This document shows, piece after piece, positions 4,801-52,681 of a stretch of 64,000 bases of DNA. The first letter of the stretch is position 1. Every line of letters begins with the position of its first letter. The notes beneath the pieces are model-generated. The model worked only from the letters and a program-made list of their open reading frames with translations. It did no database searches and was not told where the DNA came from. The translations under genes were made by a program, and so were the position numbers. Source of the DNA: Eubacteriales bacterium (lineage in GTDB: Bacteria > Bacillota > Clostridia > Oscillospirales > CAG-272); assembly GCA_045658225.1 (NCBI GenBank), contig JAZOUO010000035.1, forward strand, positions 13,639 to 77,638, in the 5' to 3' direction.

Positions 4801-6645
4801 TTATTTGTTTTCCTGCGCTGCCTTGCGTGCCTTCATCATTTCCTTCATTCGAAGCTCTGTATTGAGAATCTTCTTGCGGAGTCTTATGGACTTAGGTGTG
4901 ACCTCGATAAGCTCGTCGTCCGTGATGAATTCAATAGCCTCTTCAAGACTAAATATTGTGGGAGGAGTGAGCAGGAGCTTTTCATCCGCACCCGCGCTTC
5001 TAATTGCGGTAAGGTGCTTCTCCTTACAGGGATTTACTGCGATATCGTCATTCTTGGGGTTTTCACCGACTATCATTCCCTCGTATACGGGTGTCTGAGG
5101 TCCTACGAAGAGGTTTCCTCTTTCCTGTGTGTTATAGAGACCATAACGTGTAGTCACACCTGCCTCGGATGCAACGAGCGCACCCGTGAATCTCATAATG
5201 ATACCTCCGCGGTAAGGCTCGTAGCCCTCAAAGAGAGTGTTGAGCACGCCCTCGCCGTGAGTTGCGGAAAGGAACTCGGAGCGATAGCCGAAAAGACATC
5301 TTGACGGAATGAGATATTCAATTCTCATACGGCTTCCCATGGGGTTCATCTCAATAAGGTCGCCCTTTCTCTGTCCGAGCTTTTCTATAACTGCGCCAAC
5401 GTATTCGGTAGGCACGTCAAGTGTGACCTTTTCCATAGGCTCGCACTTTACACCGTCAATCTCCTTGATAATTACCTTGGGGTTAGAGCAAGTGAGCTCA
5501 TAACCCTCACGTCTCATATTTTCAATGAGTATGGAAAGGTGCATCTCTCCTCTGCCCGAAACTATAAACTCGTCGGTGGTGTCACCGTCGCGCACACGCA
5601 ATGATACGTCCTTGAGAAGCTCGCGGTAAAGTCTTTCACGAAGCTGACGTGAGGTGACAAATTTTCCCTCCTTACCTGCCAAGGGGCTGTCATTTACCGC
5701 AAAGGTCATTTCAACGGTAGGCTCGCTCACCTTAACGAATTCAAGAGGCTCGGGATTTGCGGTGGATGTGATTGTATCACCGATAGATATATCTCCTGCT
5801 CCCGAGAAACATACGATATCGCCCATTTTTGCGTTCTCAACGGGCAAACGTCCAAGTCCGTCTATCTGATAAAGAGAAACTATTTTGCTCTTTACGGGCT
5901 TTTCTGTGGGCTTGTGGAAGTTGCAAATTGCCACCTCCTGACCTACCTTGACACTTCCGCGCTCAATACGTCCGATTCCTATTCTTCCAACGTACTCGTT
6001 GTAGTCGATAGAGGAAACGAAAAGCTGAAGGCCTCCGTCCACATCTCCCTCGGGTGCGGGAATATATTCGAGTATCTTTTCAAACAAAGGAACAAGGTTC
6101 TCGCCGAGTACGTCGGGGTCCTCGGATGCAGTTCCTTCCCTGCCTGAGCAGTAAAGCATGGGAGAGTCAAGCTGCTCGTCAGACGCGCCAAGGTCGATAA
6201 GAAGCTCGAGTATCTCATCTTCAACCTCACCAAGACGTGCGTCGGGCTTGTCTATTTTATTAAAGCATACGATAACTCTATGATTGAGTTCAAGTGCGCG
6301 CTTAAGCACGAATCTTGTCTGAGGCATAGGTCCTTCTGCTGCGTCAACAAGGAGTATAACGCCGTTTACCATTTTAAGAACTCGCTCAACCTCGCCGCCG
6401 AAGTCCGCGTGACCGGGGGTATCAACGATATTTATTTTTACGTCCTTATAATGAACTGCTGTATTCTTCGCAAGAATGGTAATACCTCTCTCACGCTCAA
6501 TGTCTCCCGAGTCCATAACGCAGGTGACCGTTTCCTGATTTTCACGGTATATACCGCCCTGCTTCAGTAGACCATCAACAAGTGTTGTCTTTCCATGGTC
6601 AACGTGCGCTATTATTGCTACGTTTCTTAAATCCTCTCTTACCAT
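4801..6645 (-). CDS. typA: translational GTPase TypA/BipA
   Basis: 'AIIAHVDHGKTTL', 'DTPGHADF' and 'NKIDKP' G-motifs, 614 aa with an EF-G-like domain order. An SD AGAGGT precedes the ATG. Confidence 0.95.
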   Translation of the reverse strand: MVREDLRNVAIIAHVDHGKTTLVDGLLKQGGIYRENQETVTCVMDSGDIERERGITILAKNTAVHYKDVKINIVDTPGHADFGGEVERVLKMVNGVILLVDAAEGPMPQTRFVLKRALELNHRVIVCFNKIDKPDARLGEVEDEILELLIDLGASDEQLDSPMLYCSGREGTASEDPDVLGENLVPLFEKILEYIPAPEGDVDGGLQLFVSSIDYNEYVGRIGIGRIERGSVKVGQEVAICNFHKPTEKPVKSKIVSLYQIDGLGRLPVENAKMGDIVCFSGAGDISIGDTITSTANPEPLEFVKVSEPTVEMTFAVNDSPLAGKEGKFVTSRQLRERLYRELLKDVSLRVRDGDTTDEFIVSGRGEMHLSILIENMRREGYELTCSNPKVIIKEIDGVKCEPMEKVTLDVPTEYVGAVIEKLGQRKGDLIEMNPMGSRMRIEYLIPSRCLFGYRSEFLSATHGEGVLNTLFEGYEPYRGGIIMRFTGALVASEAGVTTRYGLYNTQERGNLFVGPQTPVYEGMIVGENPKNDDIAVNPCKEKHLTAIRSAGADEKLLLTPPTIFSLEEAIEFITDDELIEVTPKSIRLRKKILNTELRMKEMMKARKAAQENK

Positions 6646-6762
6646 ACTTACCTCTTATCTAAAAATTTTCCACTCATTATTATATCATAATTTTTTTCAA
6701 TATTAAATCACAAAAATAACGATTATTTACATTTTTCGTGGGATTTGATTGTGCATTTTGAC

Positions 6763-6794
6763 ACAAAAACAGCCCTCTCCGCAAAGAGAAGGCT
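6763..6794 (-). terminator. rho-independent terminator after thioredoxin gene
   Basis: Minus strand: AGCCTTCTC-tttgcg-GAGAGGGCT followed by GTTTTTGT. Confidence 0.65.
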
Positions 6795-6801
6795 ATTTGT
6801 T

Positions 6802-7110
6802 TTATTTCAACATTTCAAGTATTGACTCAAGAGGTCTGTAGCCTACCGCTTTATCTGCGAGCTTTCCGTCCTTGAGAAGCACGAGCGTGGGTATGCTGTG
6901 TATATCGTAAGCGTTTGCAATAGCACCCTGCTCGTCAACGTCAACCTTGCATACGACGACGTCGTCTCTCGTGTTTGCAATCTCCTCAATAATGGGAGCT
7001 ATCATTTTGCAGGGTCCGCACCACGTTGCATAAAAGTCGATAAGCACGGGCTTTTCGCTATTCAATGCCACCTGTTCAAAATTTTCAACCGTTAAATGTA
7101 TAATTGCCAT
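6802..7110 (-). CDS. trxA: thioredoxin
   Basis: 'FYATWCGPCKMIAP' active site. ATG 7110 is preceded by AGGAGG; the listed start at 7152 has no SD. Confidence 0.92.
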   Translation of the reverse strand: MAIIHLTVENFEQVALNSEKPVLIDFYATWCGPCKMIAPIIEEIANTRDDVVVCKVDVDEQGAIANAYDIHSIPTLVLLKDGKLADKAVGYRPLESILEMLK

Positions 7111-7124
7111 AAGTTTTCCTCCTA

Positions 7125-7322
7125 TTATTTCTGCTTGTAATAGAGCATACAATGACAGTATCCCTCAAAATCGGGGTCTTTAATCTGCTCCTTGAATTCC
7201 TTGCATACACACTTGGTGTCATCAGTTTTTTCGCGGCGGCAAGGACAGTATCCGCCCGTACGCTCAAGACCCTTGCGTATGGTCTCAACTACTTCCTTGT
7301 TGGGATTCTCTATAACTTTCAT
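7125..7322 (-). CDS. small ferredoxin:thioredoxin reductase catalytic-subunit-like protein (CPC/CxC/CHC)
   Basis: 65 aa with 'GGYCPCRREKTDDTKCVCKEF...EGYCHCMLY'. The spacing of three Cys pairs resembles the FTR-B / FDR 4Fe-4S-plus-disulfide site. It lies 14 nt upstream of trxA. Confidence 0.7.
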   Translation of the reverse strand: MKVIENPNKEVVETIRKGLERTGGYCPCRREKTDDTKCVCKEFKEQIKDPDFEGYCHCMLYYKQK

Positions 7323-7344
7323 AATTATTCCCTTCGTAAAAATT

Positions 7345-8277
7345 TTACTTCAAAAATCCGTTTATTATCTCTTCCTCTGCCTGTCTTTCGTCAAGTCCGA
7401 GAGTCATCAGCTTTATAAGCTGCTCTCCCGCAATCTTGCCGATTGCCGCCTCGTGGATAAGTGATGCCTCGATGTTATTTGCCTCTATTTCGGGGACTGC
7501 CTTGACAGACGCATTGTCCATAATAATGGCATCACATTCGGTATGTCCGTTGCAGCGTGCGTTGCCCTTGATATTTGATATAAAGAGCTGCTTTGAGTTA
7601 TCCTTTGCAACAGAACGGGAAACCACGTGCGTGCCGCATCCGTCACCGTTAAGCTCAACCTCAAACTCTGTTCTTGCAAACTGCTCGCCGTGAGTCATTA
7701 TCTTCTCGTACACCACGAGAGTTGAATCCTTATCAAGCTTTGCAACAGTCTTTCTATCGGTGGAGTCAACGCCCTTTATCTGTGTTGTCTCCATTTCAAG
7801 ATACGCGCCCTCTGAAAGTTCAACCACAGTCGTGGGGTTCATTACGTTTCTGCCGTTTCCATCACCCTCACCGTAATGCTTTTCCACATACTTTATCTTT
7901 GCGTTCTTTCCAACGTAAAACGAGTGAATTCCGCTGTGCTCGCTCATTTCTGTACCGCAGTTGTGTATTCCGCAGCCTGCAACGATTACGACGTCAGCAT
8001 CCTCACCGATATAAAAATCGTTATATACGGTCTCGGTTATACCTGTCTCGGAAAGGATTACGGGAATGTGTACGCTCTCGTTCTTTGTTCCCGCCTTGAT
8101 ATAAATCTCAATTCCCGGCTTGTCCATTTTTTTCTCAATTACAATGTTGCTTGAGGAATTCTTGCCGAAAAGCTCGCCGTTTACTCTCAAGGAGTATGCT
8201 CCCTCGGGGACTTTATGAAGCCCCGCGATATTTTCAAGGAGGTCTTTTTCCATTTTACTGAGTGTTTTCTGTGCCAT
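7345..8277 (-). CDS. SufB/SufD-family Fe-S cluster assembly scaffold protein
   Basis: 310 aa with a beta-helix-type repetitive core and 'EASLIHEAAIGKIAGEQLIKLMTLGLDERQAEEEII', typical of the SufBD C-terminus. Overlaps sufC by 1 nt. Confidence 0.8.
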   Translation of the reverse strand: MAQKTLSKMEKDLLENIAGLHKVPEGAYSLRVNGELFGKNSSSNIVIEKKMDKPGIEIYIKAGTKNESVHIPVILSETGITETVYNDFYIGEDADVVIVAGCGIHNCGTEMSEHSGIHSFYVGKNAKIKYVEKHYGEGDGNGRNVMNPTTVVELSEGAYLEMETTQIKGVDSTDRKTVAKLDKDSTLVVYEKIMTHGEQFARTEFEVELNGDGCGTHVVSRSVAKDNSKQLFISNIKGNARCNGHTECDAIIMDNASVKAVPEIEANNIEASLIHEAAIGKIAGEQLIKLMTLGLDERQAEEEIINGFLK

Positions 8278-9008
8278 CAGTTTTCACCTCCTGCCGTATA
8301 TCTGCATCCCGCGCTATGACTCAAAAGTTCGGGGAGTATCTCGTCCTTTGTTCCGTAAGCCGCGATCTTACCGCCTGCTATTACAACAACCTTGTCCGCA
8401 ATATCAAGAATTCTCTCCTGATGTGAGATGATAAGGATATTACCCTGTGTTCTCTCGTGCATTTTCTCAAACACCTTGATAAGATTGTTAAAGCTCCAAA
8501 GGTCAATTCCCGCCTCGGGCTCGTCGAATACCGAGAATTTTGTGCCTCTTGCGTTTATCATAGCTATTTCGATTCTCTTAAGCTCACCGCCCGACAAGGA
8601 CGCGTTAACCTCACGGTTGATATACTCCTTGGCGCAAAGCCCCACCTCAGAAAGATATGCGCACGCATCTGACACGGAAATCTTCTTTCCCGCCGCAAGC
8701 GAGATAAGGTCCTTTACGGTAATTCCCTTAAATCTTACAGGCTGCTGAAAAGCATAACTTATACCTGCTCGGGAACGCTCGGTAATGCTCATATTCGTAA
8801 TATCAACTCCATCAAGAATGATCTGTCCGCAGTCGGGAGAGATAATTCCAGCGATAAGCTTTGCAAGAGTTGACTTGCCGCTTCCGTTAGGGCCTGTGAC
8901 CGCAACAAATCTTTCGTTTATGGTTAAGTTTATGTCATCTAAAATACGGGTCTGCTTGCCTGTTGTAGGGTCTGTGACCGTATATGTCAGATTTTTAATT
9001 TCAAGCAT
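8277..9008 (-). CDS. sufC: Fe-S cluster assembly ATPase SufC
   Basis: Walker A 'GPNGSGKST', signature 'LSGGELKR', Walker B 'VFDEPEAGID' and 'ISHQERIL', as in SufC. Confidence 0.88.
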   Translation of the reverse strand: MLEIKNLTYTVTDPTTGKQTRILDDINLTINERFVAVTGPNGSGKSTLAKLIAGIISPDCGQIILDGVDITNMSITERSRAGISYAFQQPVRFKGITVKDLISLAAGKKISVSDACAYLSEVGLCAKEYINREVNASLSGGELKRIEIAMINARGTKFSVFDEPEAGIDLWSFNNLIKVFEKMHERTQGNILIISHQERILDIADKVVVIAGGKIAAYGTKDEILPELLSHSAGCRYTAGGEN

Positions 9009-9079
9009 TTATATATAAACCTTCCTTATATTACGTTCTTTGATTATTTTATCACAAAACTTTGGTTTATTCAATAGAT

Positions 9080-9127
9080 ATTTTGAAATTTTAAGGGCAT
9101 AAGAGTAGAAATTACACTCTTATGCCC
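9080..9127 (-). terminator. rho-independent terminator after the TrxR-like gene
   Basis: GGGCATAAGAGT-9 nt-ACTCTTATGCCC, followed on the minus strand by a T-rich tract. Confidence 0.7.
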
Positions 9128-9134
9128 CATTTTG

Positions 9135-10049
9135 TCATATATTACTGTTGTCAATATATCTGCAAGCGGCAAGGGCGGCAACTGCGCCGTCTCCGCAAGC
9201 TGTTGCAATCTGTCTTATTGCTTTAGTGCGGCAGTCTCCCGCCACGAAAAGTCCCTCGGTCGAGGTCAGACAGTTTTCATCGGATATAATATATCCTCTG
9301 TCCGAAAGCTCAACGAGATTTGCATACTGTTCATTCTCGGGAACCTGACCGATAGCAACGAAAATGCCGTCAACGTCAAGTCTTTCCTTTTCTCCGCTAT
9401 GAACATTTTGTATGATAATTCCCGCAAATTCATCCTCGGCGTAAATGCTGTCAACCACAGCGCCCGTGATAAATTCAACGTTATTTCTTTTCTTTAATGC
9501 AGATACGAGTCTTTCCTCGCCCGTCATAAAGTCAAGATTCTGTACTACGTACACCTTTTGGCATCCGTCGGATAACATCATTGCCTCAACGAGTGCCGAG
9601 TTTCCGCCACCTATGACTGCTACCTGCTTGCCGTTATAAAACGCACCGTCACAAACAGCACAGAAGGATATACCGTTGCCGATAAATTCTTCTTCTCTGT
9701 CAATGCCGAGGTGTCTGTGCTTTGAACCCGTGGCAATTATTACAGATTTGGCAAGATACTGCCCGTCGTCGCAGGAAATATAGAACGTGCCATTCTGCTT
9801 TTCAATTCCCGTGACCTCTGCCATTTCTATTTCAGCGCCCATAGAGAGAGCCTGCTCCACCATTCTCTCGGCAAGCTCATTTCCGCTTACCTGAGAAAAC
9901 GCGGGGTAGTTTTCTATCTTGGGAGAAAAGGTCATTTGTCCGCCAAAGGTAGCCTTCTCAATGACGAGTACGCTTTTTTCTGCTCTGCGAGCGTAGACCG
10001 CCGCAGTAAGTCCTGCGGGGCCTGCGCCTACGATTATTACGTCATACAT
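9135..10049 (-). CDS. thioredoxin-disulfide reductase homolog lacking the NADPH 2'-phosphate motif (FFTR-like)
   Basis: FAD motif 'VGAGPAGLTAA' and redox 'CAVCDG'. The second dinucleotide region reads 'GGGNSALVEAMMLSDGCQKVYVVQNLDFMTGEE', where NADPH-TrxRs have HRRDxFR. Confidence 0.85.
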   Translation of the reverse strand: MYDVIIVGAGPAGLTAAVYARRAEKSVLVIEKATFGGQMTFSPKIENYPAFSQVSGNELAERMVEQALSMGAEIEMAEVTGIEKQNGTFYISCDDGQYLAKSVIIATGSKHRHLGIDREEEFIGNGISFCAVCDGAFYNGKQVAVIGGGNSALVEAMMLSDGCQKVYVVQNLDFMTGEERLVSALKKRNNVEFITGAVVDSIYAEDEFAGIIIQNVHSGEKERLDVDGIFVAIGQVPENEQYANLVELSDRGYIISDENCLTSTEGLFVAGDCRTKAIRQIATACGDGAVAALAACRYIDNSNI

Positions 10050-10075
10050 TCTGATACCTACCTGAATCTAAAGTA

Positions 10076-12481
10076 TCAATTGCTAGAGCAGTCGATAAAC
10101 TTTCTGATATTAGAGAGATTTACAGCCTTCTCTGTCTCAACGCCGTCAACCGTGACAACGAGCGTGGGAGCCTGCTTGATACCAAACTTTGCAACAAGGT
10201 CAGCGTTATCCTCTGCATATACCTTTTCGTAAGCTATTCCTGCTTTGTCAAGGAATACGCCTGCCATCTTACAGTTGGGGCAAGTCTTTGTGGCAAAAAG
10301 GTATATCTTTGTTCCCTCGTCTGTCTCGGGAGCTACGGCCTCGGGAATAGGCATAGCGATAGTTCTTACTCCGCCCGAGCCGATATTTATCTCGGGATGA
10401 AGCTGTGTGGATCTTTCAATATTATACGTGCGTCTCTCCTTGAATTCCTGAGACTTACCGTCGTTCCAAGCCTGAACGGGTCTGTAATAGCCTGTTATAC
10501 GGCTATAAACCTCGGTAGTCTTTCCACAGTGAGGACACGTGTATTCCTCACCTGCGATATAACCGTGGTCGGTACAAACGCTGTACGTGGGCGAGAGAGT
10601 GTAGTAAGGAAGCTTGTAGTTCTCTGCAATCTTGCGAACGAGAGTAGCTGCTGCCTTCCAGTCGGGAAGCTTTTCGCCGAGGAATGCGTGGAATACCGTA
10701 CCCGAGGTGTAGAGGGTCTGGAGCTCGTCCTGAATCTCAAGAGCTGCGAAGATATCCTCTGTAAAGCTTACGGGAAGGTGAGAGGAGTTTGTATAGTAGG
10801 GGCTGTTGCCCTTTTCGGTTGCTGTGATAATGTCGGGATAGTGCTTGAGGTCGTGCTTTGCGAAACGGAAAGATGTTGACTCTGCAGGAGTTGCTTCAAG
10901 GTTATAAAGGTCTCCGTATGCTTCCTGATAGTCAGAAAGTCTGTCTCTCATATGATTGAGAACTGCCTTTGAGAATTCCTGAGTTTCCTTCTGTGTCATA
11001 TCTGCACGGAGCCACTTAGCGTTAAGTCCCACCTCGTTCATACCGACAAGACCGATAGTCGAGAAGTGGTTGTTGAACGTGCCAAGGTATCTCTTTGTGT
11101 AGGGATAAAGTCCTTCGTTGAGAAGCTTTGTAATAACGGTTCTCTTCATCTTGAGCGAGCGTGCGGAGATGTCCATAAGCTTGTCAAGTCTCTTGTAGAA
11201 TTCCTCCTCTGTTTCGGAGAGGTATGCGATTCTGGGCATATTGATTGTGACAACGCCAACAGAGCCTGTGGACTCACCCGAGCCAAAGTATCCGCCGGAC
11301 TTTTTACGAAGCTCACGGAGGTCAAGACGGAGACGGCAACACATAGAACGAACGTCCGAGGGCTCCATATCCGAGTTGATGTAGTTGGAGAAATAAGGTG
11401 TACCGTACTTTGCGGTCATCTCAAAGAGAAGCTTGTTGTTCTCTGTCTCGGACCAGTCAAAATCACGTGTGATAGAATACGTAGGAATAGGATACTGGAA
11501 GCCACGGCCGTTAGCGTCACCCTCGATCATTATCTCGATGAACGCCTTGTTGACCATGTCCATTTCAGCCTTACAGTCCTTATACTTGAAGTCCATTTCC
11601 TTGCCGCCAACGATACAGTTGAGCTCTGCAAGGTCGTTAGGAACTGTCCAGTCAAGAGTGATATTAGTAAAGGGAGACTGCGTACCCCAACGGGAAGGTG
11701 TGTTGACACCGTAAATAAAGGACTGGATGCACTGCTTAACTTCCTTATAGGAAAGATTATCTACTTTTACAAAAGGAGCGAGATATGTATCAAATGAGGA
11801 GAACGCCTGCGCGCCTGCCCACTCGTTCTGCATAATACCGAGGAAGTTTACCATCTGGTTGCAGAGTGTGGAAAGGTGAGCCGCGGGAGAGGACGTGATC
11901 TTACCTGTCACTCCGCCAAGACCTTCTTGAATGAGCTGCTTGAGTGACCAACCTGCGCAATAGCCTGTAAGCATAGAAAGGTCGTGAATGTGAATGTCTG
12001 CGTTTCTGTGCGCGTTTGCAATCTCATCATCGTAAATCTCGGAGAGCCAATAGTTAGCCGTAACTGCGCCCGAGTTTGAAAGGATAAGTCCGCCTACAGA
12101 GTAAGTGACGGTAGAGTTTTCCTTAACTCTCCAGTCAAGCACCTTAAGGTAGCCGTTTACTATCTCCTTATAGTCAACTGCCGTGGATTTGAGATTTCTG
12201 AGCTTCTCTCTCTGACGGCGGTAAAGAATATATGCCTTTGCAACGTCTGCGTAGCCTGCCTGAACGAGCACGGACTCAACGCTGTCCTGAATATCTTCTA
12301 CTGTGATAAGTGAGTCCTTGATCTTGGGTTCAAAGTCCGCAGTGACCTTGAGTGCCAAAAAATCAATAGTGTCCTGATTGAACTGCTTCTCCTGTGCCTC
12401 GAATGCCATTTTGATTGCATCCGAAATTTTCGAGATTGTAAAATCTACAACCTTTCCGTCTCTTTTTTGTACCTGATACAT
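10076..12481 (-). CDS. nrdD: anaerobic (class III) ribonucleoside-triphosphate reductase NrdD with C-terminal glutaredoxin/NrdH-like domain
   Basis: N-terminal ATP-cone ('MYQVQKRDGKVVDF'), 'SMCCRLRLD' thiyl loop, Zn ribbon 'CPHCG', glycyl-radical motif 'SRITGYYRPV'. An extra ~140 residues follow, ending in 'IYLFATKTCPNCKMAG...KQAPTLVV'. Confidence 0.93.
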   Translation of the reverse strand: MYQVQKRDGKVVDFTISKISDAIKMAFEAQEKQFNQDTIDFLALKVTADFEPKIKDSLITVEDIQDSVESVLVQAGYADVAKAYILYRRQREKLRNLKSTAVDYKEIVNGYLKVLDWRVKENSTVTYSVGGLILSNSGAVTANYWLSEIYDDEIANAHRNADIHIHDLSMLTGYCAGWSLKQLIQEGLGGVTGKITSSPAAHLSTLCNQMVNFLGIMQNEWAGAQAFSSFDTYLAPFVKVDNLSYKEVKQCIQSFIYGVNTPSRWGTQSPFTNITLDWTVPNDLAELNCIVGGKEMDFKYKDCKAEMDMVNKAFIEIMIEGDANGRGFQYPIPTYSITRDFDWSETENNKLLFEMTAKYGTPYFSNYINSDMEPSDVRSMCCRLRLDLRELRKKSGGYFGSGESTGSVGVVTINMPRIAYLSETEEEFYKRLDKLMDISARSLKMKRTVITKLLNEGLYPYTKRYLGTFNNHFSTIGLVGMNEVGLNAKWLRADMTQKETQEFSKAVLNHMRDRLSDYQEAYGDLYNLEATPAESTSFRFAKHDLKHYPDIITATEKGNSPYYTNSSHLPVSFTEDIFAALEIQDELQTLYTSGTVFHAFLGEKLPDWKAAATLVRKIAENYKLPYYTLSPTYSVCTDHGYIAGEEYTCPHCGKTTEVYSRITGYYRPVQAWNDGKSQEFKERRTYNIERSTQLHPEINIGSGGVRTIAMPIPEAVAPETDEGTKIYLFATKTCPNCKMAGVFLDKAGIAYEKVYAEDNADLVAKFGIKQAPTLVVTVDGVETEKAVNLSNIRKFIDCSSN

Positions 12482-12606
12482 AGTCTCTCCCTCTTTCTGC
12501 TGATGTTTTTATAGTAATTTTTCTTTACAAAATAAGACATTTTTCGCCAAAATTTGCCTAAAACGTCAGAAATACGGCGCAAAGTACCCCTAAGCGCCGT
12601 ATTTTG

Positions 12607-12658
12607 ATTATACAATATCTTGTGTCAACTGTCAACTACCAAACACAACATATTGTGT
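12607..12658 (-). promoter_or_regulatory. nrdD promoter with tandem NrdR boxes
   Basis: Minus strand: TTGACA (12630-12635), a 17-nt spacer, then TATAAT (12607-12612). Two 16-mers, ACACAATATGTTGTGT (12643-12658) and ACACAAGATATTGTAT (12610-12625), match the NrdR box acaCwAtATaTwGtgt, with starts 33 nt apart. Confidence 0.7.
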
Positions 12659-12689
12659 TTTTCGTTAAAATTTGGCAGTTTCAATAAGT

Positions 12690-13394
12690 TTACATCCCCC
12701 TTAATTGTGCATTTGGAACTAAAGACTTTAATACGTTAAGAAATTCATACATTTTTTCATCTGAATAAGCGTCAAGTCCCCTACCGATTACATCCCCGGA
12801 ATCAATAAATTTCTGGAGAAAATATCTTTCGTCTCCCGCAAGCCACTCCCCAATAAGTTGGAAATCGTCTGTTTCATGAAGCGGGTCAACTACTGTTGTG
12901 CGGAACTCAAAGTCAATCGCATCTGACATAAGAAAGCTTGCGCTTTCCTCTATTTTGGAAATGTCATATTCCTCACACACTCCCGCGGTAAGAGCATATT
13001 TTTCACGACTGTTTTTTATATCCATAGCAACGTAGTCTATAAGTCCCTCGCCTACAAGGTGCTTGAGAATATCGGGACGGGTGCCGTTGGTGTCAAGCTT
13101 GACAGCAAATCCAAGTGCTTTGACTTTTCGGATAAAATCCTCAAGTCCGGGCATCAGCGTGGGCTCTCCCCCGCTGATACAAACACCCTCAATTATTCCT
13201 TGTCTTTTTTTCAAAAAGTCAAGCACATGCTCCACAGAATATCCCTCGCTATCGCCCGTGTGGGTGACAAGAGACGCATTATGACAAAACGGGCAACGGA
13301 AATTGCAACCCTCTGTAAATATTGTGCAGGCGACTTTCCCCGGGAAGTCAAGCAAGGTAAGCTTTTGCAGTCCCGCAATCTTAAATGCTTTCAT
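12690..13394 (-). CDS. nrdG: anaerobic ribonucleotide reductase activating protein (radical SAM)
   Basis: 'CNFRCPFCHN' CX3CX2C cluster and 'ISGGEPT', 234 aa, immediately upstream of nrdD. Confidence 0.9.
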   Translation of the reverse strand: MKAFKIAGLQKLTLLDFPGKVACTIFTEGCNFRCPFCHNASLVTHTGDSEGYSVEHVLDFLKKRQGIIEGVCISGGEPTLMPGLEDFIRKVKALGFAVKLDTNGTRPDILKHLVGEGLIDYVAMDIKNSREKYALTAGVCEEYDISKIEESASFLMSDAIDFEFRTTVVDPLHETDDFQLIGEWLAGDERYFLQKFIDSGDVIGRGLDAYSDEKMYEFLNVLKSLVPNAQLRGM

Positions 13395-13406
13395 AAAATA
13401 TCCTTA

Positions 13407-14000
13407 TTATATGTAGTTTCTTTGTACAGCAACGACTCTGCCGAGTATCAGCACCTCGTCAACAATTATGGGCTGCATCTCGCAATTTTCGGGCTGAAGT
13501 CTGTAATGTCCGTTTTCGCGGAAAAATCTCTTGACGGTAGCCTCGTTTTCAATAAGAGCCACAACTATTTCTCCACTATCCGCATAGCAAGTCTGCTCGG
13601 CGATAATAATATCTCCGTCAAGTATTCCCGCCTCAATCATAGACTCTCCCTTTACGCGCAAAGCGAATAGACTGTCTGTTTTTGAGTTCCCTGCATATCC
13701 CACGTATCCCTCGCGATTTTCCTCGGCAAGTATAGGCTCGCCTGCAGTAATAACTCCAAGAAGCGGCACGGCGGTTATCTTGGGCGTGTTTCCCACAAGC
13801 TTTACAGCGCGGCTCTTGCCATCCTCCTTACTTATATATCCGAGAAGATCCAAGCGATTGAGATACATATGCACAGTCGACGTGCTTTTATATCCGAGGT
13901 CGCGGCATATATCACGAACAGATGGCGCATAGCCGTTCTCGCGTACGGATTTAGCTATATAATCGTATATTTTTTGTTCCTTTGGCTTTAACTTTTCCAT
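13407..14000 (-). CDS. lexA: LexA repressor
   Basis: Winged-helix N-terminus ('QKIYDYIAKSVRENGYAPSVRDI'), cleavage-site region, Ser 'VKGESMIEAGI' and Lys 'ATVKRF' of the S24 dyad. Confidence 0.93.
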   Translation of the reverse strand: MEKLKPKEQKIYDYIAKSVRENGYAPSVRDICRDLGYKSTSTVHMYLNRLDLLGYISKEDGKSRAVKLVGNTPKITAVPLLGVITAGEPILAEENREGYVGYAGNSKTDSLFALRVKGESMIEAGILDGDIIIAEQTCYADSGEIVVALIENEATVKRFFRENGHYRLQPENCEMQPIIVDEVLILGRVVAVQRNYI

Positions 14001-14027
14001 TGATGTACTCCTGTTTAGGTCATTATA

Positions 14028-14039
14028 GAACTATTGTAC
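14028..14039. promoter_or_regulatory. candidate LexA (Cheo-type) box abutting the lexA -10 element
   Basis: GAACTATTGTAC fits GAAC-N4-GTTC with one mismatch. On the minus strand it reads GTACAATAGTTC immediately followed by TATAAT. Confidence 0.5.
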
Positions 14040-14250
14040 CATATTTTTATGATTTTGTCATTATATGTTGAAAATTTATTTGTAAACTTTTTATTTTTGG
14101 AAAAATATTGAAAATATTAACAAAATGAAACTTTTAGAATTATCTCTTGCAAAATAACAAAAGATATAGTAAAATATATAATAGCGAAGAATTGGATTTT
14201 TCGCTTGTAATTCTGCAAAAAAAATTGAAAATATAAAGGAGTAAAAGACT

Positions 14251-16038
14251 ATGACACCTACAAACAACAAGTTTGTTCTTGATTGGATCAATGAGATGGC
14301 TGAAATGACCTGCCCCGACAAGATCGTATGGATCGATGGATCTGACGAACAGGCAGAGGCTCTTCGCGCTGAGGCTTGTTCCACAGGCGAGATCATCAAG
14401 CTCAATCAGGATCTTCTTCCCAACTGCTACCTTCACAGAACTGCCGTAAACGACGTTGCTCGTGTTGAGGGCAGAACCTTTATTTGCACATCCAAGAAAG
14501 AGGATGCAGGCAACATCAACAACTGGATGGCTCCCGAGGAGTGCTATGCAAAGCTCTCCAAACTTTACGCAGGCTCTATGAAGGGCAGAACAATGTACGT
14601 TATTCCCTATTCTATGAGTATCGTTGGCTCTCCCTTTGCAAAGTACGGTATCGAGCTTACAGACTCCATTTACGTCGTTCTTAACATGCTTATTATGACA
14701 CGTGTCGGCAACAACGTTCTTGAGGCTCTTGGCGACAGCAGTGACTTTATCAAGGGTCTCCACGCAAGAGCTGATATTGACGAGGAAAACCGTTATATCT
14801 GTCATTTCCCCGAGGATAACACAATCTGGTCTGTTAACTCCGGCTACGGCGGAAACGTTCTTCTCGGTAAGAAGTGCTTTGCGCTCCGTATCGCTTCCTA
14901 CCTCGGTCGTAAGGAAGGCTGGATGGCTGAGCACATGCTCATTCTCGGTGTTGAATATCCCGACGGTGAGACAAAGTACGTTTGCGCAGCATTCCCCTCC
15001 GCTTGCGGTAAGACCAACCTCGCTATGCTTATTCCCCCCGAGTACTACTCCAAGCAGGGCTATAAGGTTTGGTGCGTAGGTGACGATATTGCATGGCTCC
15101 GCGTCGGTGAGGACGGCAGACTCTGGGCAGTTAACCCCGAAAACGGATTCTTCGGCGTTGCTCCCGGTACAAACGAGAAATCCAACCCCAACGCTCTCCA
15201 CACTTGTCTTAAGGACACTATCTTTACAAACGTAGTTCACAACCTCGATAACAACACAGTTTGGTGGGAAGGTCTTGACAAGAATCCTCCCGCAAACGCT
15301 ATCGACTGGAAGGGCAACGTTTGGGATTACAGAAAATATGATAAGAAGGATAAGTCCACTTGCGGCGCTCATCCCAACTCTCGTTTCACTGCTCTTGCAA
15401 AGAACTGTCCTTGGATCTCTTCTGAATTCAGCAATCCCGCAGGCGTGCCTATCTCCGCTATCGTATTTGGCGGACGTAGAGCAAAGACTGCTCCCCTTGT
15501 ATATCAGTCAACGTCCTGGCAGAACGGCGCATTCGTCGGCTCTATCATGGCTTCCGAGACAACTGCGGCTGCAGCAGGCGCTGTCGGCGTAGTAAGACGT
15601 GACCCCATGGCTATGAGACCTTTCGTTGGCTACGATATGGGTGACTACTGGGCACACTGGCTCAAGATGGGCACACTTATTCCCAATGCTCCCAAGATAT
15701 TCCACGTTAACTGGTTCCGTACCGACGACGAAGGCAACTTCATCTGGCCCGGATTTGGTGACAATATGAGAGTACTCATGTGGATTCTCGCTCGTTGCGA
15801 AGGTAAGGTTGATGCGGACATCACTCCTATCGGATATGTTCCCAAGGCTGAGGATATCTGCATTGAGGGACTTACAGACGTAAGCCTTGACACAATCAAG
15901 GAGCTTCTCACAGTTGATAAGGCTTCCTGGCTTGAGGATATTGAGAACATCAAGGCGTTCTACGCACAGGTAGGCGACCGCGTTCCTCAGACTATGTACG
16001 ACGAGCTCGCAGCTCTTGAAGCAAGACTTAAGGCATAA
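14251..16038 (+). CDS. pck: phosphoenolpyruvate carboxykinase (GTP)
   Basis: 595 aa with 'FPSACGKTNLAML' kinase-1a, 'GDDIAW' and 'NPNSRFT' motifs of GTP-PEPCK. An SD AAGGAG precedes the ATG. Confidence 0.95.
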   Translation: MTPTNNKFVLDWINEMAEMTCPDKIVWIDGSDEQAEALRAEACSTGEIIKLNQDLLPNCYLHRTAVNDVARVEGRTFICTSKKEDAGNINNWMAPEECYAKLSKLYAGSMKGRTMYVIPYSMSIVGSPFAKYGIELTDSIYVVLNMLIMTRVGNNVLEALGDSSDFIKGLHARADIDEENRYICHFPEDNTIWSVNSGYGGNVLLGKKCFALRIASYLGRKEGWMAEHMLILGVEYPDGETKYVCAAFPSACGKTNLAMLIPPEYYSKQGYKVWCVGDDIAWLRVGEDGRLWAVNPENGFFGVAPGTNEKSNPNALHTCLKDTIFTNVVHNLDNNTVWWEGLDKNPPANAIDWKGNVWDYRKYDKKDKSTCGAHPNSRFTALAKNCPWISSEFSNPAGVPISAIVFGGRRAKTAPLVYQSTSWQNGAFVGSIMASETTAAAAGAVGVVRRDPMAMRPFVGYDMGDYWAHWLKMGTLIPNAPKIFHVNWFRTDDEGNFIWPGFGDNMRVLMWILARCEGKVDADITPIGYVPKAEDICIEGLTDVSLDTIKELLTVDKASWLEDIENIKAFYAQVGDRVPQTMYDELAALEARLKA

Positions 16039-51822: not shown

Positions 51823-52422
51823 TCAATCAGACAAAAGCTGTCTGAGTTTTTTGCGTATTCTGTAAATTGCGTTATTAACGGATCGCACGTCTCCATCAAC
51901 CTTTTCCGCAATAGTCTTTGCGGAAAGTCCCGATGTGTAAAGCCACCATACTCTTGCCTCGTATGGAGAAAGATTACTCTGTATTCTGTCAACTAGAGAT
52001 CTTATTTTCTCATCTTCAACAACCTGATCCAAGGGGTCTGTCTGCCCTTCCTCCGAGATGAACTGCGAAAGCTCATCAAGCGACGCAACGCCACGCGCAC
52101 CTGTTGAATTGTACTTTCGGATAAATGTAATAAGCCTGTTGCTTATACACACCTTCGCGTACAGTCCAAACTCAACCTGCGATTCCTCACAGTTGTAATT
52201 ACACACCGCATTAACAAACGCGCTGACCGCCTCGTCATGCAAATCCTCACGATCTTGATTGGACATATAGTCAGCATAAGCGCGATTTACCTGCGACTCG
52301 ATAAGAGGATGATATTTACTTTTTAGAAAGTCCAAGGCGTCAAGGCTGCCCTCTCTCGCCTTCTGAATCATAGAAATGATTTCATCCCTTGATTCTGCTG
52401 CATTTCTGTTTTCCGAGTTCAT
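51823..52422 (-). CDS. sigma-70 family RNA polymerase sigma factor (group 3/4-like)
   Basis: Region 2 ('LHDEAVSAFVNAVCNY...FGLYAKVCISNRLITFIRK') and region 4 HTH ('LSAKTIAEKVDGDVRSVNNAIYRIRKKL'). Confidence 0.75.
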   Translation of the reverse strand: MNSENRNAAESRDEIISMIQKAREGSLDALDFLKSKYHPLIESQVNRAYADYMSNQDREDLHDEAVSAFVNAVCNYNCEESQVEFGLYAKVCISNRLITFIRKYNSTGARGVASLDELSQFISEEGQTDPLDQVVEDEKIRSLVDRIQSNLSPYEARVWWLYTSGLSAKTIAEKVDGDVRSVNNAIYRIRKKLRQLLSD

Positions 52423-52681
52423 TTTTCTCCTACCGATTTGTAAAAATGACGCTTACAAATACACTATCTAATTGTATCATTATTTTTCCCAAAAGTCAAC
52501 ACTATTTTTTGCGTTTTTTTGTTGCACTTTTACAAAATATGTTGTCTATGGTCTGTTTTGAACAAATTAAAGCCTGTCTACTTGTGCATTTTAATCAATC
52601 AATTTTGACTTTGTTGTTCATTATGCACATTGGTATTCTTGAAAGTTTGTTAACTATTTTTCTTAAAAAATATTAAGTACA

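What the first reader, a model, noticed from the sequence alone, without database searches (positions are those of the whole stretch)
9135..12481. Class III RNR fused to a glutaredoxin-like domain and followed by an NADPH-motif-less thioredoxin reductase
Seen in the sequence:
- NrdD has its glycyl-radical motif 'SRITGYYRPV' about 140 residues before the end, whereas ordinary NrdDs stop soon after it.
- After a ~60-residue linker comes 'KIYLFATKTCPNCKMAGVFLDKAGIAYEKVYAEDNADLVAKFGIKQAPTLVV', a CxxC glutaredoxin/NrdH-like fold (nt 10079-10312).
- 26 nt downstream begins a TrxB homolog with FAD ('GAGPAG') and redox ('CAVC') motifs. Where NADPH-dependent enzymes have HRRDxFR, it reads 'YVVQNLDFMTGEE'.

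Established knowledge:
- Loss of that basic cluster characterises the ferredoxin-dependent flavin thioredoxin reductases first described in Clostridium pasteurianum, and related pyridine-nucleotide-independent TrxRs.
- Some class III RNRs use thioredoxin-type reductants instead of formate. Examples are Neisseria bacilliformis NrdD, and Methanosarcina barkeri NrdD with an NrdH-like redoxin and a ferredoxin:disulfide reductase.

Inference: the redoxin here is covalently attached to NrdD and its likely reductase is co-transcribed. That suggests a path from ferredoxin to the flavoenzyme, to the fused redoxin, to NrdD.
Basis: partly seen in the sequence, partly recalled or inferred. Interest (0 to 1): 0.6.

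Follow-up and report, generated by a model that had tools for sequence, protein, structure and literature searches.

The report
Anaerobic RNR with tethered redoxin
This gut bacterium's only enzyme for making DNA building blocks has a small thioredoxin-like electron carrier fused to its tail and a recharging-enzyme gene right behind it, a design shared by hundreds of gut anaerobes but never tested; the recharger most likely runs on NADH, not on ferredoxin as first proposed.

Summary
NrdD (10076-12481, minus strand, 801 aa) is a complete class III RNR. A 34-residue linker joins it to an 80-residue thioredoxin-fold domain with a CPNC site. A trxB homologue (9135-10049) starts 26 nt downstream and reads QNLDFMTGE where NADPH enzymes have HRRDxFRxE.

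The active site is the thiol type: C175, the finger loop M-C-C-R and E529. The Met used in formate chemistry is also kept.

The layout is common. 65 of 151 sampled genomes of the order carry the fusion. 66 of 80 related loci have trxB directly downstream, and 54 of those 66 lack HRR. nrdD-trxB forms a two-gene unit between an NrdR-boxed consensus promoter and a strong hairpin.

The ferredoxin reading is not supported. The reductase keeps the GGGNSA pyrophosphate loop that ferredoxin-type and NAD(P)H-independent TrxRs have lost. It scores 130 bits against FFTR but 230-246 bits against ordinary TrxRs. It has also converged on the Q-x-L-x-x-L-T motif of Thermotoga maritima TrxR, which is reported to prefer NADH.

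Best reading: NADH, then TrxB, then the tethered redoxin, then the NrdD disulfide. All of this is untested at the bench. This scan has met the same architecture in several other genomes. The literature I could search holds one supplementary-table line on it.

The parts
12607..12658 (-). Promoter of the nrdD-trxB unit. It has a perfect TTGACA-17-TATAAT (12635..12607) and two NrdR-like 16-mers (12643-12658 and 12610-12625) whose starts are 33 bp apart.
   Evidence: The promoter scan scores 12/12. The NrdR-box pattern gives 0 and 1 mismatch, with 6 matches in the window against 0.78 expected. nrdR is present in the genome.
10076..12481 (-). nrdD: class III ribonucleoside-triphosphate reductase fused to a redoxin, 801 aa.
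   Evidence: NF006126 scores 1137 bits over residues 1-688. Pfam finds ATP-cone, NRDD and Glutaredoxin.
12206..12475 (-). ATP-cone, residues 3-92 (allosteric on/off domain).
   Evidence: PF03477 scores 80 bits.
11957..11959 (-). C175, the beta-A cysteine and partner of the active-site disulfide. It aligns with T. maritima C125.
   Evidence: Alignment to 4coi. Invariant in 81/81 sequences.
11333..11344 (-). Finger-loop motif M380-C381-C382-R383, the double-cysteine type with Met. It aligns with T. maritima S328-CCR331.
   Evidence: Invariant in 81/81 sequences. Motif classes are taken from PMC9669993.
10895..10897 (-). E529, at the column of the proposed proton-donor Glu (T. maritima E495).
   Evidence: Alignment. 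The column definition is in PMC9669993 section 4.3. Invariant in 81/81 sequences.
10475..10576 (-). Zn ribbon (C636, H639, C649, C652) and glycyl-radical motif SRITGYYRPV (G664).
10316..10417 (-). Linker, residues 689-722. It has no Cys here and is variable in length and sequence among relatives.
   Evidence: In one search (an alignment slice one residue offset from 689-722) the linker is 11-67 aa, and 44 of 81 sequences have at least one Cys in it. pLDDT is about 30 in the full-length model.
10079..10315 (-). Thioredoxin-fold redoxin domain, residues 723-801. Active site C734-P-N-C737 (10271-10282) and cis-Pro P772.
   Evidence: C734, P735 and C737 are invariant, and P772 is present in 80/81.
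9135..10049 (-). trxB homologue, 304 aa. FAD motif GAGPAG (10011-10028), redox CAVC (9651-9662), pyrophosphate loop GGGNSA (9594-9611), and QNLDFMTGE in place of HRRDxFRxE (9516-9542).
9094..9128 (-). 14-bp hairpin followed by a U-rich tract, directly after the trxB stop. It is the likely terminator of the nrdD-trxB unit.
   Evidence: Fold energy is -22.2 kcal/mol, z -5.8, with 0 of 200 shuffles as stable. The simple terminator scan did not flag it because the tail has too few T.
12690..13394 (-). nrdG, the radical-SAM activase (NrdG2 type). It lies upstream and is separated from nrdD by the 208-nt promoter region.
   Evidence: TIGR02495 scores 219 bits against a cut-off of 131. nrdG is found on the locus in about 69 of 80 loci and lies directly upstream of nrdD in most of them.

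Best explanation
This is a self-contained, thiol-driven class III ribonucleotide reductase system.

**Proposed mechanism**
1. NrdG installs the glycyl radical on G664.
2. During turnover, C175 and one cysteine of the C381-C382 pair deliver the two electrons and form a disulfide. E529 acts as proton donor. This is the mechanism of the thioredoxin-dependent 'NrdD2' enzymes.
3. The disulfide is re-reduced by the enzyme's own C-terminal CPNC thioredoxin-fold domain, which swings on a ~34-residue flexible linker.
4. That domain is recharged by the flavoprotein TrxB encoded 26 nt downstream.

**Regulation.** Both genes are transcribed from one NrdR-controlled promoter.

**Electron donor.** TrxB has lost the 2'-phosphate (HRR) site but kept the dinucleotide pyrophosphate loop. 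It therefore most likely takes electrons from NADH, possibly with residual NADPH use.

**Wider role.** In this genome and most relatives it is also the only TrxR. It probably serves the general thioredoxin as well.

**Shown here:** domain architecture, active-site residues, operon structure, conservation and linkage.
**Inferred:** every electron-transfer step and the identity of the donor.
For: **Architecture and fold:**

**Thiol-type active site**
- C175, MCCR and E529 align with T. maritima C125, SCCR(328-331) and E495.
- All are invariant in 81/81 fused enzymes.

**The redoxin is not a glutathione-type Grx or an NrdH**
- It scores 19-22 bits on the Grx and NrdH equivalogs against cut-offs of 85-129.
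- It resembles Trx and PDO proteins, which are TrxR substrates.

**Linkage to trxB**
- trxB lies directly downstream on the same strand in 66/80 loci and in 48/65 genomes of an even sample of the order.
- The nrdD-adjacent TrxBs form one clade with 99% support.

**Operon**
- The gap is 26 nt.
- There is a 12/12 promoter with two NrdR-like boxes and nrdR is present.
- A hairpin of -22 kcal/mol follows trxB.

**No alternative enzymes in the assembly**
- No class I or II RNR was found in the 82%-complete assembly.
- There is one TrxR-like gene.

**Donor**
- GGGN[ST]A is kept in every HRR-less sequence.
- The protein is 43% identical (246 bits) to T. maritima TR TM0869. That enzyme reads IQLLETLTAAK at the same place and is reported to prefer NADH (PMC5627308).
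- The same H-to-Q, R-to-L and R-to-T replacements arose independently in Thermotogae and in this clade (tree; AU test p = 1e-4).
- T. acidophilum TR lacks HRR and is NADH-dependent (PMC6262447).
Against: - Nothing here has been assayed.
- The finger loop keeps the Met that supports formate chemistry in E. coli NrdD. Burnim et al. say such enzymes could use either reductant. PFL-like genes exist in the genome, so formate may be available.
- The residue at the end of strand beta-2 is Gln, not the Asp or Glu typical of NADH sites.
- The T. maritima motif is QLL, not QNL. The closest structure (7JYP, QNL) has no reported cofactor data that I could find.
- Motif convergence is an argument by analogy.
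- 14 of 80 loci have the fusion without an adjacent trxB.
- 12 of 66 adjacent TrxBs are canonical HRR enzymes. The HRR-less state is therefore not required for the partnership.
- The full-length AlphaFold model was too poor (pLDDT 44) to show whether the tethered domain can reach the active site.
Confidence: 0.55

Rival explanations
1. The HRR-less TrxB is a ferredoxin-dependent, or otherwise pyridine-nucleotide-independent, flavin thioredoxin reductase. Electrons would then flow from ferredoxin to TrxB, to the fused redoxin, to NrdD.
For: - The HRR cluster is absent and is replaced by a conserved non-basic motif.
- Such anaerobes make reduced ferredoxin.
- FFTR and DvTRi show that low-Mr TrxRs can abandon NAD(P)H.
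- The end of beta-2 carries Gln rather than an acidic residue.
- An FTR-like gene and a thioredoxin lie 2-3 kb downstream in this genome, so ferredoxin-linked thiol reduction is plausible in this organism.
Against: - FFTR and TRi are described as lacking both GxGxxA and HRR, or as having a degenerate pyrophosphate loop. Here GGGN[ST]A is invariant.
- The score against FFTR structures is 125-130 bits, against 230-246 bits for NAD(P)H enzymes.
- A true TRi-type paralogue exists in the same order. It looks different (286 aa, GSGDYA, TNGE, best PDB match 5nii) and is not linked to nrdD.
- The clade descends from HRR-type nrdD-linked TrxBs.
- It converges on the motif of an NADH-preferring enzyme.
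Confidence: 0.2
2. Formate remains the working reductant through the retained Met380-Cys175 pair. The tethered redoxin would have an auxiliary role. It might rescue adventitious disulfides after oxygen exposure, keep the Zn-ribbon and active-site thiols reduced before activation, or act as a backup when formate is scarce.
For: - Met380 is invariant.
- PFL-like genes are present.
Against: - The second Cys and the Glu, which define the thiol mechanism, are also invariant.
- A covalent fusion plus an operon-encoded reductase under NrdR control is a large investment for a repair function.
- T. maritima NrdD showed no activity with formate but worked with a protein fraction larger than 10 kDa (PMC4493059).
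Confidence: 0.15
3. TrxB still works mainly with NADPH despite the motif change, or is truly dual. The motif change would then have little physiological meaning.
For: - T. maritima TR uses both nucleotides (as cited).
- Twelve nrdD-linked relatives are canonical HRR enzymes, which shows that the partnership works with NADPH.
- TIGR01292 is missed by only 10 bits.
Against: - All three arginines that hold the 2'-phosphate in E. coli TrxR are replaced by N, L and T.
- The replacement is strictly conserved across a clade of 55 sequences, which suggests selection for a new specificity.
Confidence: 0.1

Closest known systems
Thioredoxin-dependent class III RNR ('NrdD2'): Neisseria bacilliformis NrdD with TrxA/TrxB/NADPH, and the T. 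maritima NrdD structures 4COI/4U3E
   Same: - Glycyl-radical NrdD with a beta-A Cys, a double-Cys finger loop and the active-site Glu.
- The reductant is predicted to be a thioredoxin-fold protein recharged by a low-Mr TrxR.
   Different: - The redoxin is fused to the C-terminus rather than free.
- The finger loop is MCCR (Met kept), not SCCR.
- An N-terminal ATP-cone is present.
- trxB sits in the same operon and lacks the NADPH 2'-phosphate motif.
- Identity to T. maritima NrdD is low (137 bits). By the one published table entry for a related fusion, the family would be RNRdb subclass NrdDd.
Thermotoga maritima thioredoxin reductase TM0869 (NADH-preferring). From my own memory of Yang & Ma 2010, it works with a glutaredoxin-like protein.
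   Same: - Low-Mr TrxR with GGGxxA kept and HRRDxFR replaced by Q-x-L-x-x-L-T.
- 43% identical to the window's TrxB.
- Its partner is a non-glutathione, Grx-like or Trx-fold protein.
   Different: - The motif arose independently, so the two are not in the same clade.
- The motif is QLLETLTAA there and QNLDFMTGE here.
- The Thermotoga gene is not fused or linked to nrdD in anything I examined.
Methanosarcina barkeri NrdD3 with an NrdH-like redoxin and a ferredoxin:disulfide reductase
   Same: A class III RNR served by a dedicated small redoxin and a dedicated reductase encoded nearby.
   Different: - NrdD3 has QCCR and no Glu. Here the loop is MCCR and the Glu is present.
- The reductase there is an FTR-like iron-sulfur enzyme. 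Here it is a flavoprotein TrxR.
- This window does hold an FTR-like gene (7125-7322), but it lies outside the operon and outside the conserved module.
Grx::NrdB fusion of Facklamia ignava, and the list of Grx-RNR fusions in Rozman Grinberg et al. 2018
   Same: - A redoxin fused to an RNR subunit, shown there to act as the RNR's reductant.
- Their Table S1 lists one 'Glutaredoxin:NrdD' protein (Lachnospiraceae bacterium TWA4, NrdDd).
   Different: - That work concerns class I and glutathione-dependent Grx.
- The NrdD fusion was only listed, as a single case. Its breadth, its trxB linkage and the altered TrxB were not described.
Ferredoxin-dependent flavin thioredoxin reductases (clostridial FFTR, 6GNA) and D. 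vulgaris TRi (5NII)
   Same: Low-Mr TrxR fold, FAD and CxxC motifs, and no HRR cluster.
   Different: - Those enzymes also lose the GxGxxA loop and are shorter (about 286-290 aa).
- The window's TrxB keeps the loop.
- It scores only 109-130 bits against them.

Membership tests
Class III RNR (NrdD) | Full-length match to a curated NrdD model, a C-terminal glycyl-radical motif (RxxGY), a Zn ribbon, and a cognate radical-SAM activase. | tested here: met
   - NF006126 scores 1137 bits against a cut-off of 548.
- TIGR02487 scores 520 against 326.
- RITGY has G664 and the Cys/His ribbon is at 636-652.
- NrdG (TIGR02495) scores 219 against 131 and lies directly upstream.
NrdD2 (thiol/thioredoxin-dependent subtype, criteria of Wei et al. 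2014 as summarised in PMC4493059) | A third active-site Cys adjacent to the thiyl Cys (CC in the finger loop). | tested here: met
   C381-C382 align with T. maritima C329-C330. Invariant in 81/81 sequences.
NrdD2 | An active-site Glu at the column of T. maritima E495. | tested here: met
   E529 aligns with E495 (column defined). Invariant in 81/81 sequences.
NrdD2 | Turnover with Trx/TrxR and none with formate. | not testable with these tools
   This needs an anaerobic enzyme assay. The retained Met380 leaves formate use open.
FFTR (ferredoxin-dependent flavin thioredoxin reductase) | Absence of both NAD(P)H motifs, GxGxxA and HRRxxxR. | tested here: not met
   HRR is absent, but GGGNSA is present and invariant in the clade. 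The criterion is taken from PMC10880999.
FFTR | Clusters with clostridial or cyanobacterial FFTR sequences. | tested here: not met
   - 6gna, 6gnd and 6gnc score 125-130 bits and 5j60 scores 152 bits.
- NAD(P)H TrxRs score 228-246 bits.
- The clade is nested among HRR-type nrdD-linked TrxBs.
FFTR | Flavin reduced by ferredoxin and not by NAD(P)H. | not testable with these tools
   Biochemical assay required.
Low-Mr thioredoxin reductase (TIGR01292) | FAD GxGxxG motif, redox CxxC in the second domain, and a full-length model match. | tested here: inconclusive
   GAGPAG and CAVC are present and all 300 model positions align. The score of 333.2 is just below the curated cut-off of 343.45.
NADH-preferring TrxR of the Thermotoga type | HRRDxFR replaced by Q-x-L-x-x-L-T, with GGGxxA retained. 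| tested here: met
   QNLDFMT here against QLLETLT in TM0869 and QNLPYLT in 7JYP.
NADH-preferring TrxR of the Thermotoga type | Common descent with the Thermotogae clade. | tested here: not met
   The two form separate clades. The AU test rejects a single Q-x-L clade at p = 1e-4. The resemblance is therefore convergent.
Glutaredoxin / NrdH | Match to the curated Grx or NrdH models. From my own knowledge, the family signatures are CPYC with a glutathione site for Grx, and CVQC plus WSGFRP for NrdH. | tested here: not met
   - TIGR02194 (NrdH) scores 22 bits against 85.75.
- GRX_bact scores 19 against 90.
- The site is CPNC, and no WSGFRP or GG-x-x-D is seen in the sequence.
- Only the generic Pfam Glutaredoxin domain passes, at 24.7 against 22.9.
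- It is best called a short thioredoxin-fold redoxin.

The most novel reading that the evidence does not exclude
The Q-N-L clade of nrdD-linked TrxBs would be a third, independently evolved class of flavin thioredoxin reductase. It would draw on a low-potential donor (ferredoxin or flavodoxin) rather than a pyridine nucleotide. In hundreds of gut Clostridia, dNTP synthesis, and in most of them the whole thioredoxin system, would then be wired directly to the ferredoxin pool. A milder version is that the MCCR-plus-Glu enzyme is a true dual-reductant RNR that switches between formate and its tethered redoxin.
Probability: 0.2. Interest if true: 0.7.

Novelty: new variant of a known kind. Interest (0 to 1): 0.45.

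Why it matters
- **An open question in the class III RNR field.** The majority subtype, MCCR plus Glu, has no biochemically established reductant. Burnim et al. (2022) could only say it might use formate or thioredoxin. A covalent redoxin fusion with an NrdR-co-regulated TrxR, conserved across dozens of families of gut anaerobes, is strong genomic evidence for the thiol route. It also offers a convenient single-polypeptide system for testing it.
- **Thioredoxin systems in gut anaerobes.** In most of these genomes the nrdD-linked, HRR-less TrxB is the only TrxR. Its cofactor therefore sets how the whole thiol-redox system of abundant gut Oscillospirales is powered.
- **A marker for cofactor preference.** The independent arrival of Thermotogae and Clostridia at the same Q-x-L-x-x-L-T motif suggests a sequence marker for NADH-preferring TrxRs. 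These are currently annotated as 'thioredoxin reductase (NADPH)'.
- **A caution on annotation.** This case warns against reading 'no HRR' as 'ferredoxin-dependent'.

Tried and rejected
- **Full-length AlphaFold2 model of NrdD (13-sequence alignment).** Mean pLDDT was 44, so it says nothing on domain docking. Only the redoxin domain folded confidently.
- **Rfam on 6000-15000.** No riboswitch or leader in the nrdG-nrdD gap, only a sub-threshold chance hit.
- **Simple terminator scan.** It did not flag the hairpin after trxB because the tail is too short on T. Direct folding did find it.
- **Papers not held in the library.** Wei et al. 2014 (PMC4246965), Yang & Ma 2010 (PMC2820846) and Susanti et al. 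2017 (PMC5579543). Their content is cited only through papers that quote them.
- **An alternative reductase in the 13 trxB-less loci examined (a 14th, L011, ends too soon after nrdD).** None recurs downstream of nrdD.
- **Downstream genes as part of the system.** I considered whether SufC, SufBD, the FTR-like gene and Trx belong to it. They accompany nrdD only in the two closest relatives (L001, and partly L006) and lie beyond the hairpin. I rejected them as part of the conserved module.
- **A single origin of the Q-x-L motif by transfer from Thermotogae.** Rejected by the tree and the AU test.

Full report
**What is there**

All genes discussed lie on the minus strand. In order of transcription:
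- lexA (14000..13407);
- nrdG (13394..12690; TIGR02495 at 219 bits);
- a 208-nt gap;
- nrdD (12481..10076, 801 aa);
- 26 nt;
- a trxB homologue (10049..9135, 304 aa);
- 126 nt containing a strong hairpin;
- sufC-like, sufBD-like, a 65-aa FTR-catalytic-subunit-like gene and a WCGPC thioredoxin (9008..6802).

The window belongs to a 1.57-Mb, 109-contig assembly, 45% G+C, 82% complete and 3% contaminated. Its nearest relatives are uncultured gut 'Eubacteriales/Oscillospiraceae' genomes.

**Checking the observation**

- NrdD matches the equivalog model NF006126 from end to end with residues 1-688 (1137 bits). It has an ATP-cone (3-92) and the Pfam NRDD domain (121-686).
- The glycyl-radical motif SRITGYYRPV is at 660-669. 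Residues 689-801 are therefore extra.
- Residues 723-801 pass Pfam Glutaredoxin (24.7 bits against 22.9).
- A profile of 40 such domains finds thioredoxins and PDO-type 'glutaredoxin-like' proteins in the PDB at about 1e-8.
- AlphaFold2 gives a confident beta-alpha-beta-alpha-beta-beta-alpha fold (pLDDT 96.3). Foldseek matches it to thioredoxins with probability 1.00 and TM 0.75-0.81.
- The active site is C734-P-N-C737 with a cis-Pro context (QAPTL).
- The domain fails the curated NrdH and Grx models by a wide margin. 'Short thioredoxin-fold redoxin' is the safest name.
- The trxB homologue has GAGPAG, CAVC and GGGNSA, and reads QNLDFMTGE where S. aureus TrxR has HRRDELRAQ.

The true linker is about 34 residues, not about 60.

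**NrdD subtype**

- In the alignment with T. maritima NrdD, Y174-C175 match Y124-C125, M380-C381-C382-R383 match S328-C-C-R331, and E529 matches E495.
- Burnim et al. define the finger-loop motif and the proton-donor column by exactly those T. maritima residues.
- Aurelius et al. summarise the Wei et al. criteria: NrdD2 has the third Cys and the Glu, and some members also have a Met. The enzyme meets the sequence criteria for the thiol-using subtype.
- The enzyme belongs to the MCCR majority. For that group Burnim et al. state that both formate and thioredoxin chemistry remain possible.
- All of these residues are invariant in 81 fused NrdDs.

**How common the fusion is, and whether trxB is really linked**

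- The C-terminal region alone finds 1587 protein clusters at 90% identity, nearly all about 800 aa with ATP-cone plus NRDD plus Grx/Trx domains.
- In an even sample of 151 genomes of the order, 70 have this NrdD type. 65 of them extend through the redoxin domain, spread over many families.
All of the best 80 carry the CP[NK]C domain. They include Oscillospiraceae, Acutalibacteraceae, Butyricicoccaceae and a Christensenellaceae MAG. They also include the cultured Pseudoflavonifractor phocaeensis and Ruminococcus turbiniformis, and seven Lentisphaerota MAGs.
- A trxB homologue lies directly downstream on the same strand in 66 of the 80 loci, mostly within 5-300 nt.
- It does so in 48 of the 65 sampled genomes. 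In 32 of those 48 it is the only TrxR-like gene at E <= 1e-40.
- nrdG is found on the locus in about 69 of the 80 loci and lies directly upstream of nrdD in most of them.
- The Suf, FTR-like and Trx genes accompany the cassette only in the two closest relatives. They are not part of the conserved module.

**Transcription unit**

- The gap before nrdD holds a perfect TTGACA-17-TATAAT.
- It is overlapped and preceded by two NrdR-like palindromes, ACACAATATGTTGTGT and ACACAAGATATTGTAT, whose starts are 33 bp apart.
- nrdR is present on another contig.
- The 26-nt nrdD-trxB spacer has no hairpin.
- Immediately after the trxB stop lies a 14-bp hairpin (-22.2 kcal/mol, z -5.8) followed by a U-rich tract.
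- nrdD-trxB therefore reads as a bicistronic, NrdR-controlled operon.

**The reductase: ferredoxin or NADH?**

Of the 66 linked TrxBs, 54 lack HRR. 53 read Q[N/D]L-x-x-[LMFV]-TGE and one reads QNK. The other 12 are canonical HRRDxFR enzymes.

All linked TrxBs form one clade with 99% support. The HRR-less ones are a monophyletic subclade (99%) arising among HRR-type members. The linkage to nrdD therefore came first and the motif change later.

Four observations argue against a ferredoxin-type enzyme:
1. The pyrophosphate loop GGGN[ST]A is invariant. FFTRs are described as lacking both NAD(P)H motifs. TRi enzymes have a degenerate loop, GEGxxAxN.
2. The protein scores 125-130 bits against the FFTR structures and 109 against DvTRi. 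It scores 228-241 bits against ordinary TrxRs and 246 against T. maritima TR.
3. A real TRi-type paralogue occurs in the same order. It is 286 aa, reads GSGDYA and TNGE, and its best PDB match is 5nii at 216 bits. It is not linked to nrdD.
4. The closest solved structure, Thermosipho africanus TrxR (7JYP), reads VQNLPYLTAAK. T. maritima TR (TM0869, AAD35951.1) reads IQLLETLTAAK at this position. It was identified by exact cluster look-up. Valette et al. list TmTR as an NADH-TR that prefers NADH over NADPH, citing Yang & Ma 2010.

The Thermotogae Q-x-L enzymes are a separate clade nested among Thermotogae HRR enzymes. A tree forcing all Q-x-L sequences together is rejected (delta lnL 151, p-AU 1e-4). 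The group was named after the tree had been seen. The motif columns were left in the alignment, which works against rejection.

Two lineages have thus independently swapped H-R-R...R for Q-x-L...T. That points to the same selective outcome in both.

T. acidophilum TR is a further warning. It lacks HRR, was first called pyridine-nucleotide independent, and was later shown to be NADH-dependent.

I therefore favour NADH at about 0.5. Ferredoxin or another donor gets about 0.2, and the remainder goes to retained or dual NADPH use. This rests on analogy, and the Gln at the end of beta-2 is not a classical NADH marker.

**Mechanism proposed**

1. NrdG makes the G664 radical.
2. The thiyl Cys of the finger loop starts catalysis. 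By analogy with MGCR enzymes, this is the second Cys, C382.
3. C175 and C381 supply the electrons and form a disulfide, with E529 as proton donor.
4. The tethered CPNC domain reduces that disulfide, in cis or across the dimer.
5. TrxB re-reduces the domain with NADH.

Only the parts list, its conservation and its genetic linkage are shown here. Every transfer step is inferred. No other RNR was found in the assembly, so this system probably carries all dNTP synthesis.

**Comparison with what is known**

- The closest system is the N. bacilliformis/T. maritima NrdD2 type. It differs in having a free thioredoxin, an SCCR loop, NADPH-TrxR and no fusion.
- The M. barkeri NrdD3 system uses an FTR-like iron-sulfur reductase and lacks the Glu.
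- Redoxin-RNR fusions are established for class I (F. ignava Grx::NrdB).
- Table S1 of that paper lists a single 'Glutaredoxin:NrdD' protein, from Lachnospiraceae bacterium TWA4, subclass NrdDd.
- In the library I found no paper describing the breadth of the fusion, its trxB linkage or the altered TrxB.
- Earlier agents of this scan noted the same architecture in other genomes. One of them also favoured NADH. I reached that view from my own tests.

**Verdict**

It is probably wrong about ferredoxin.
- This is a new variant of a known kind. It is widespread, untested and of moderate interest.

Noticed in passing
window 6802-9008 (minus strand): sufC-like, sufBD-like, a 65-aa FTR-catalytic-subunit-like protein and a WCGPC thioredoxin sit just beyond the trxB hairpin. 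The FTR-like protein has CPC..CVC..CHC and scores 25 bits on PF02943. This could be a separate ferredoxin-to-thioredoxin route. It accompanies nrdD only in the closest relatives (L001, and partly L006).
   Followed up: partly
window 52499-52547: A second pair of NrdR-like 16-mers (2 mismatches each), again with starts 33 bp apart. It lies upstream of a 199-aa sigma-factor-like gene (51823-52422, minus strand). It may be chance or an extra NrdR target.
   Followed up: no
L013, L021, L023, L036, L053, L060, L080: Seven Lentisphaerota/Victivallaceae MAGs carry a fused NrdD about 78% identical to the Clostridia ones, on contigs up to 254 kb. Three of them also have the Q-x-L TrxB, nested inside the Clostridia clade. 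This looks like transfer of the whole cassette between phyla.
   Followed up: partly
phage record MT835493.1, 47428-48015: One unannotated human-gut phage genome encodes an NrdD C-terminus that runs through the redoxin domain (55% identity, 98% coverage). Other phage NrdDs match only up to the glycyl-radical region.
   Followed up: no
L001-L080, linker between the NrdD core and the redoxin domain: 44 of 81 relatives have one to four cysteines in the linker, often as CxC or CxxC. This window has none. Linker length ranges from 11 to 67 residues.
   Followed up: partly
window 9666-9680 (TrxB residues 124-128) and relatives: The canonical thioredoxin-docking G[R/K]G is G[E/N/D]G in most Q-x-L-type TrxBs. 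The fused redoxin has a conserved Lys right after CPNC. This may be a charge swap at the docking interface.
   Followed up: no
window 12690-14000: nrdG follows lexA with a 12-nt gap. A full promoter separates it from nrdD. The activase and the reductase therefore appear to be transcribed separately in this genome.
   Followed up: no
L081 (G010:C5), L082 (G002:C2): Some genomes of the order carry a second, short (283-286 aa) TrxR paralogue of the D. vulgaris TRi type, which is NAD(P)H-independent. It has a degenerate GxGxxA loop and a T-N/D-G motif, and it is not linked to nrdD.
   Followed up: partly
L077, about 200-2370 nt after nrdD: One relative has a second, 720-aa NrdD-like gene directly downstream of the fused nrdD, in the place where trxB usually sits.
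   Followed up: no
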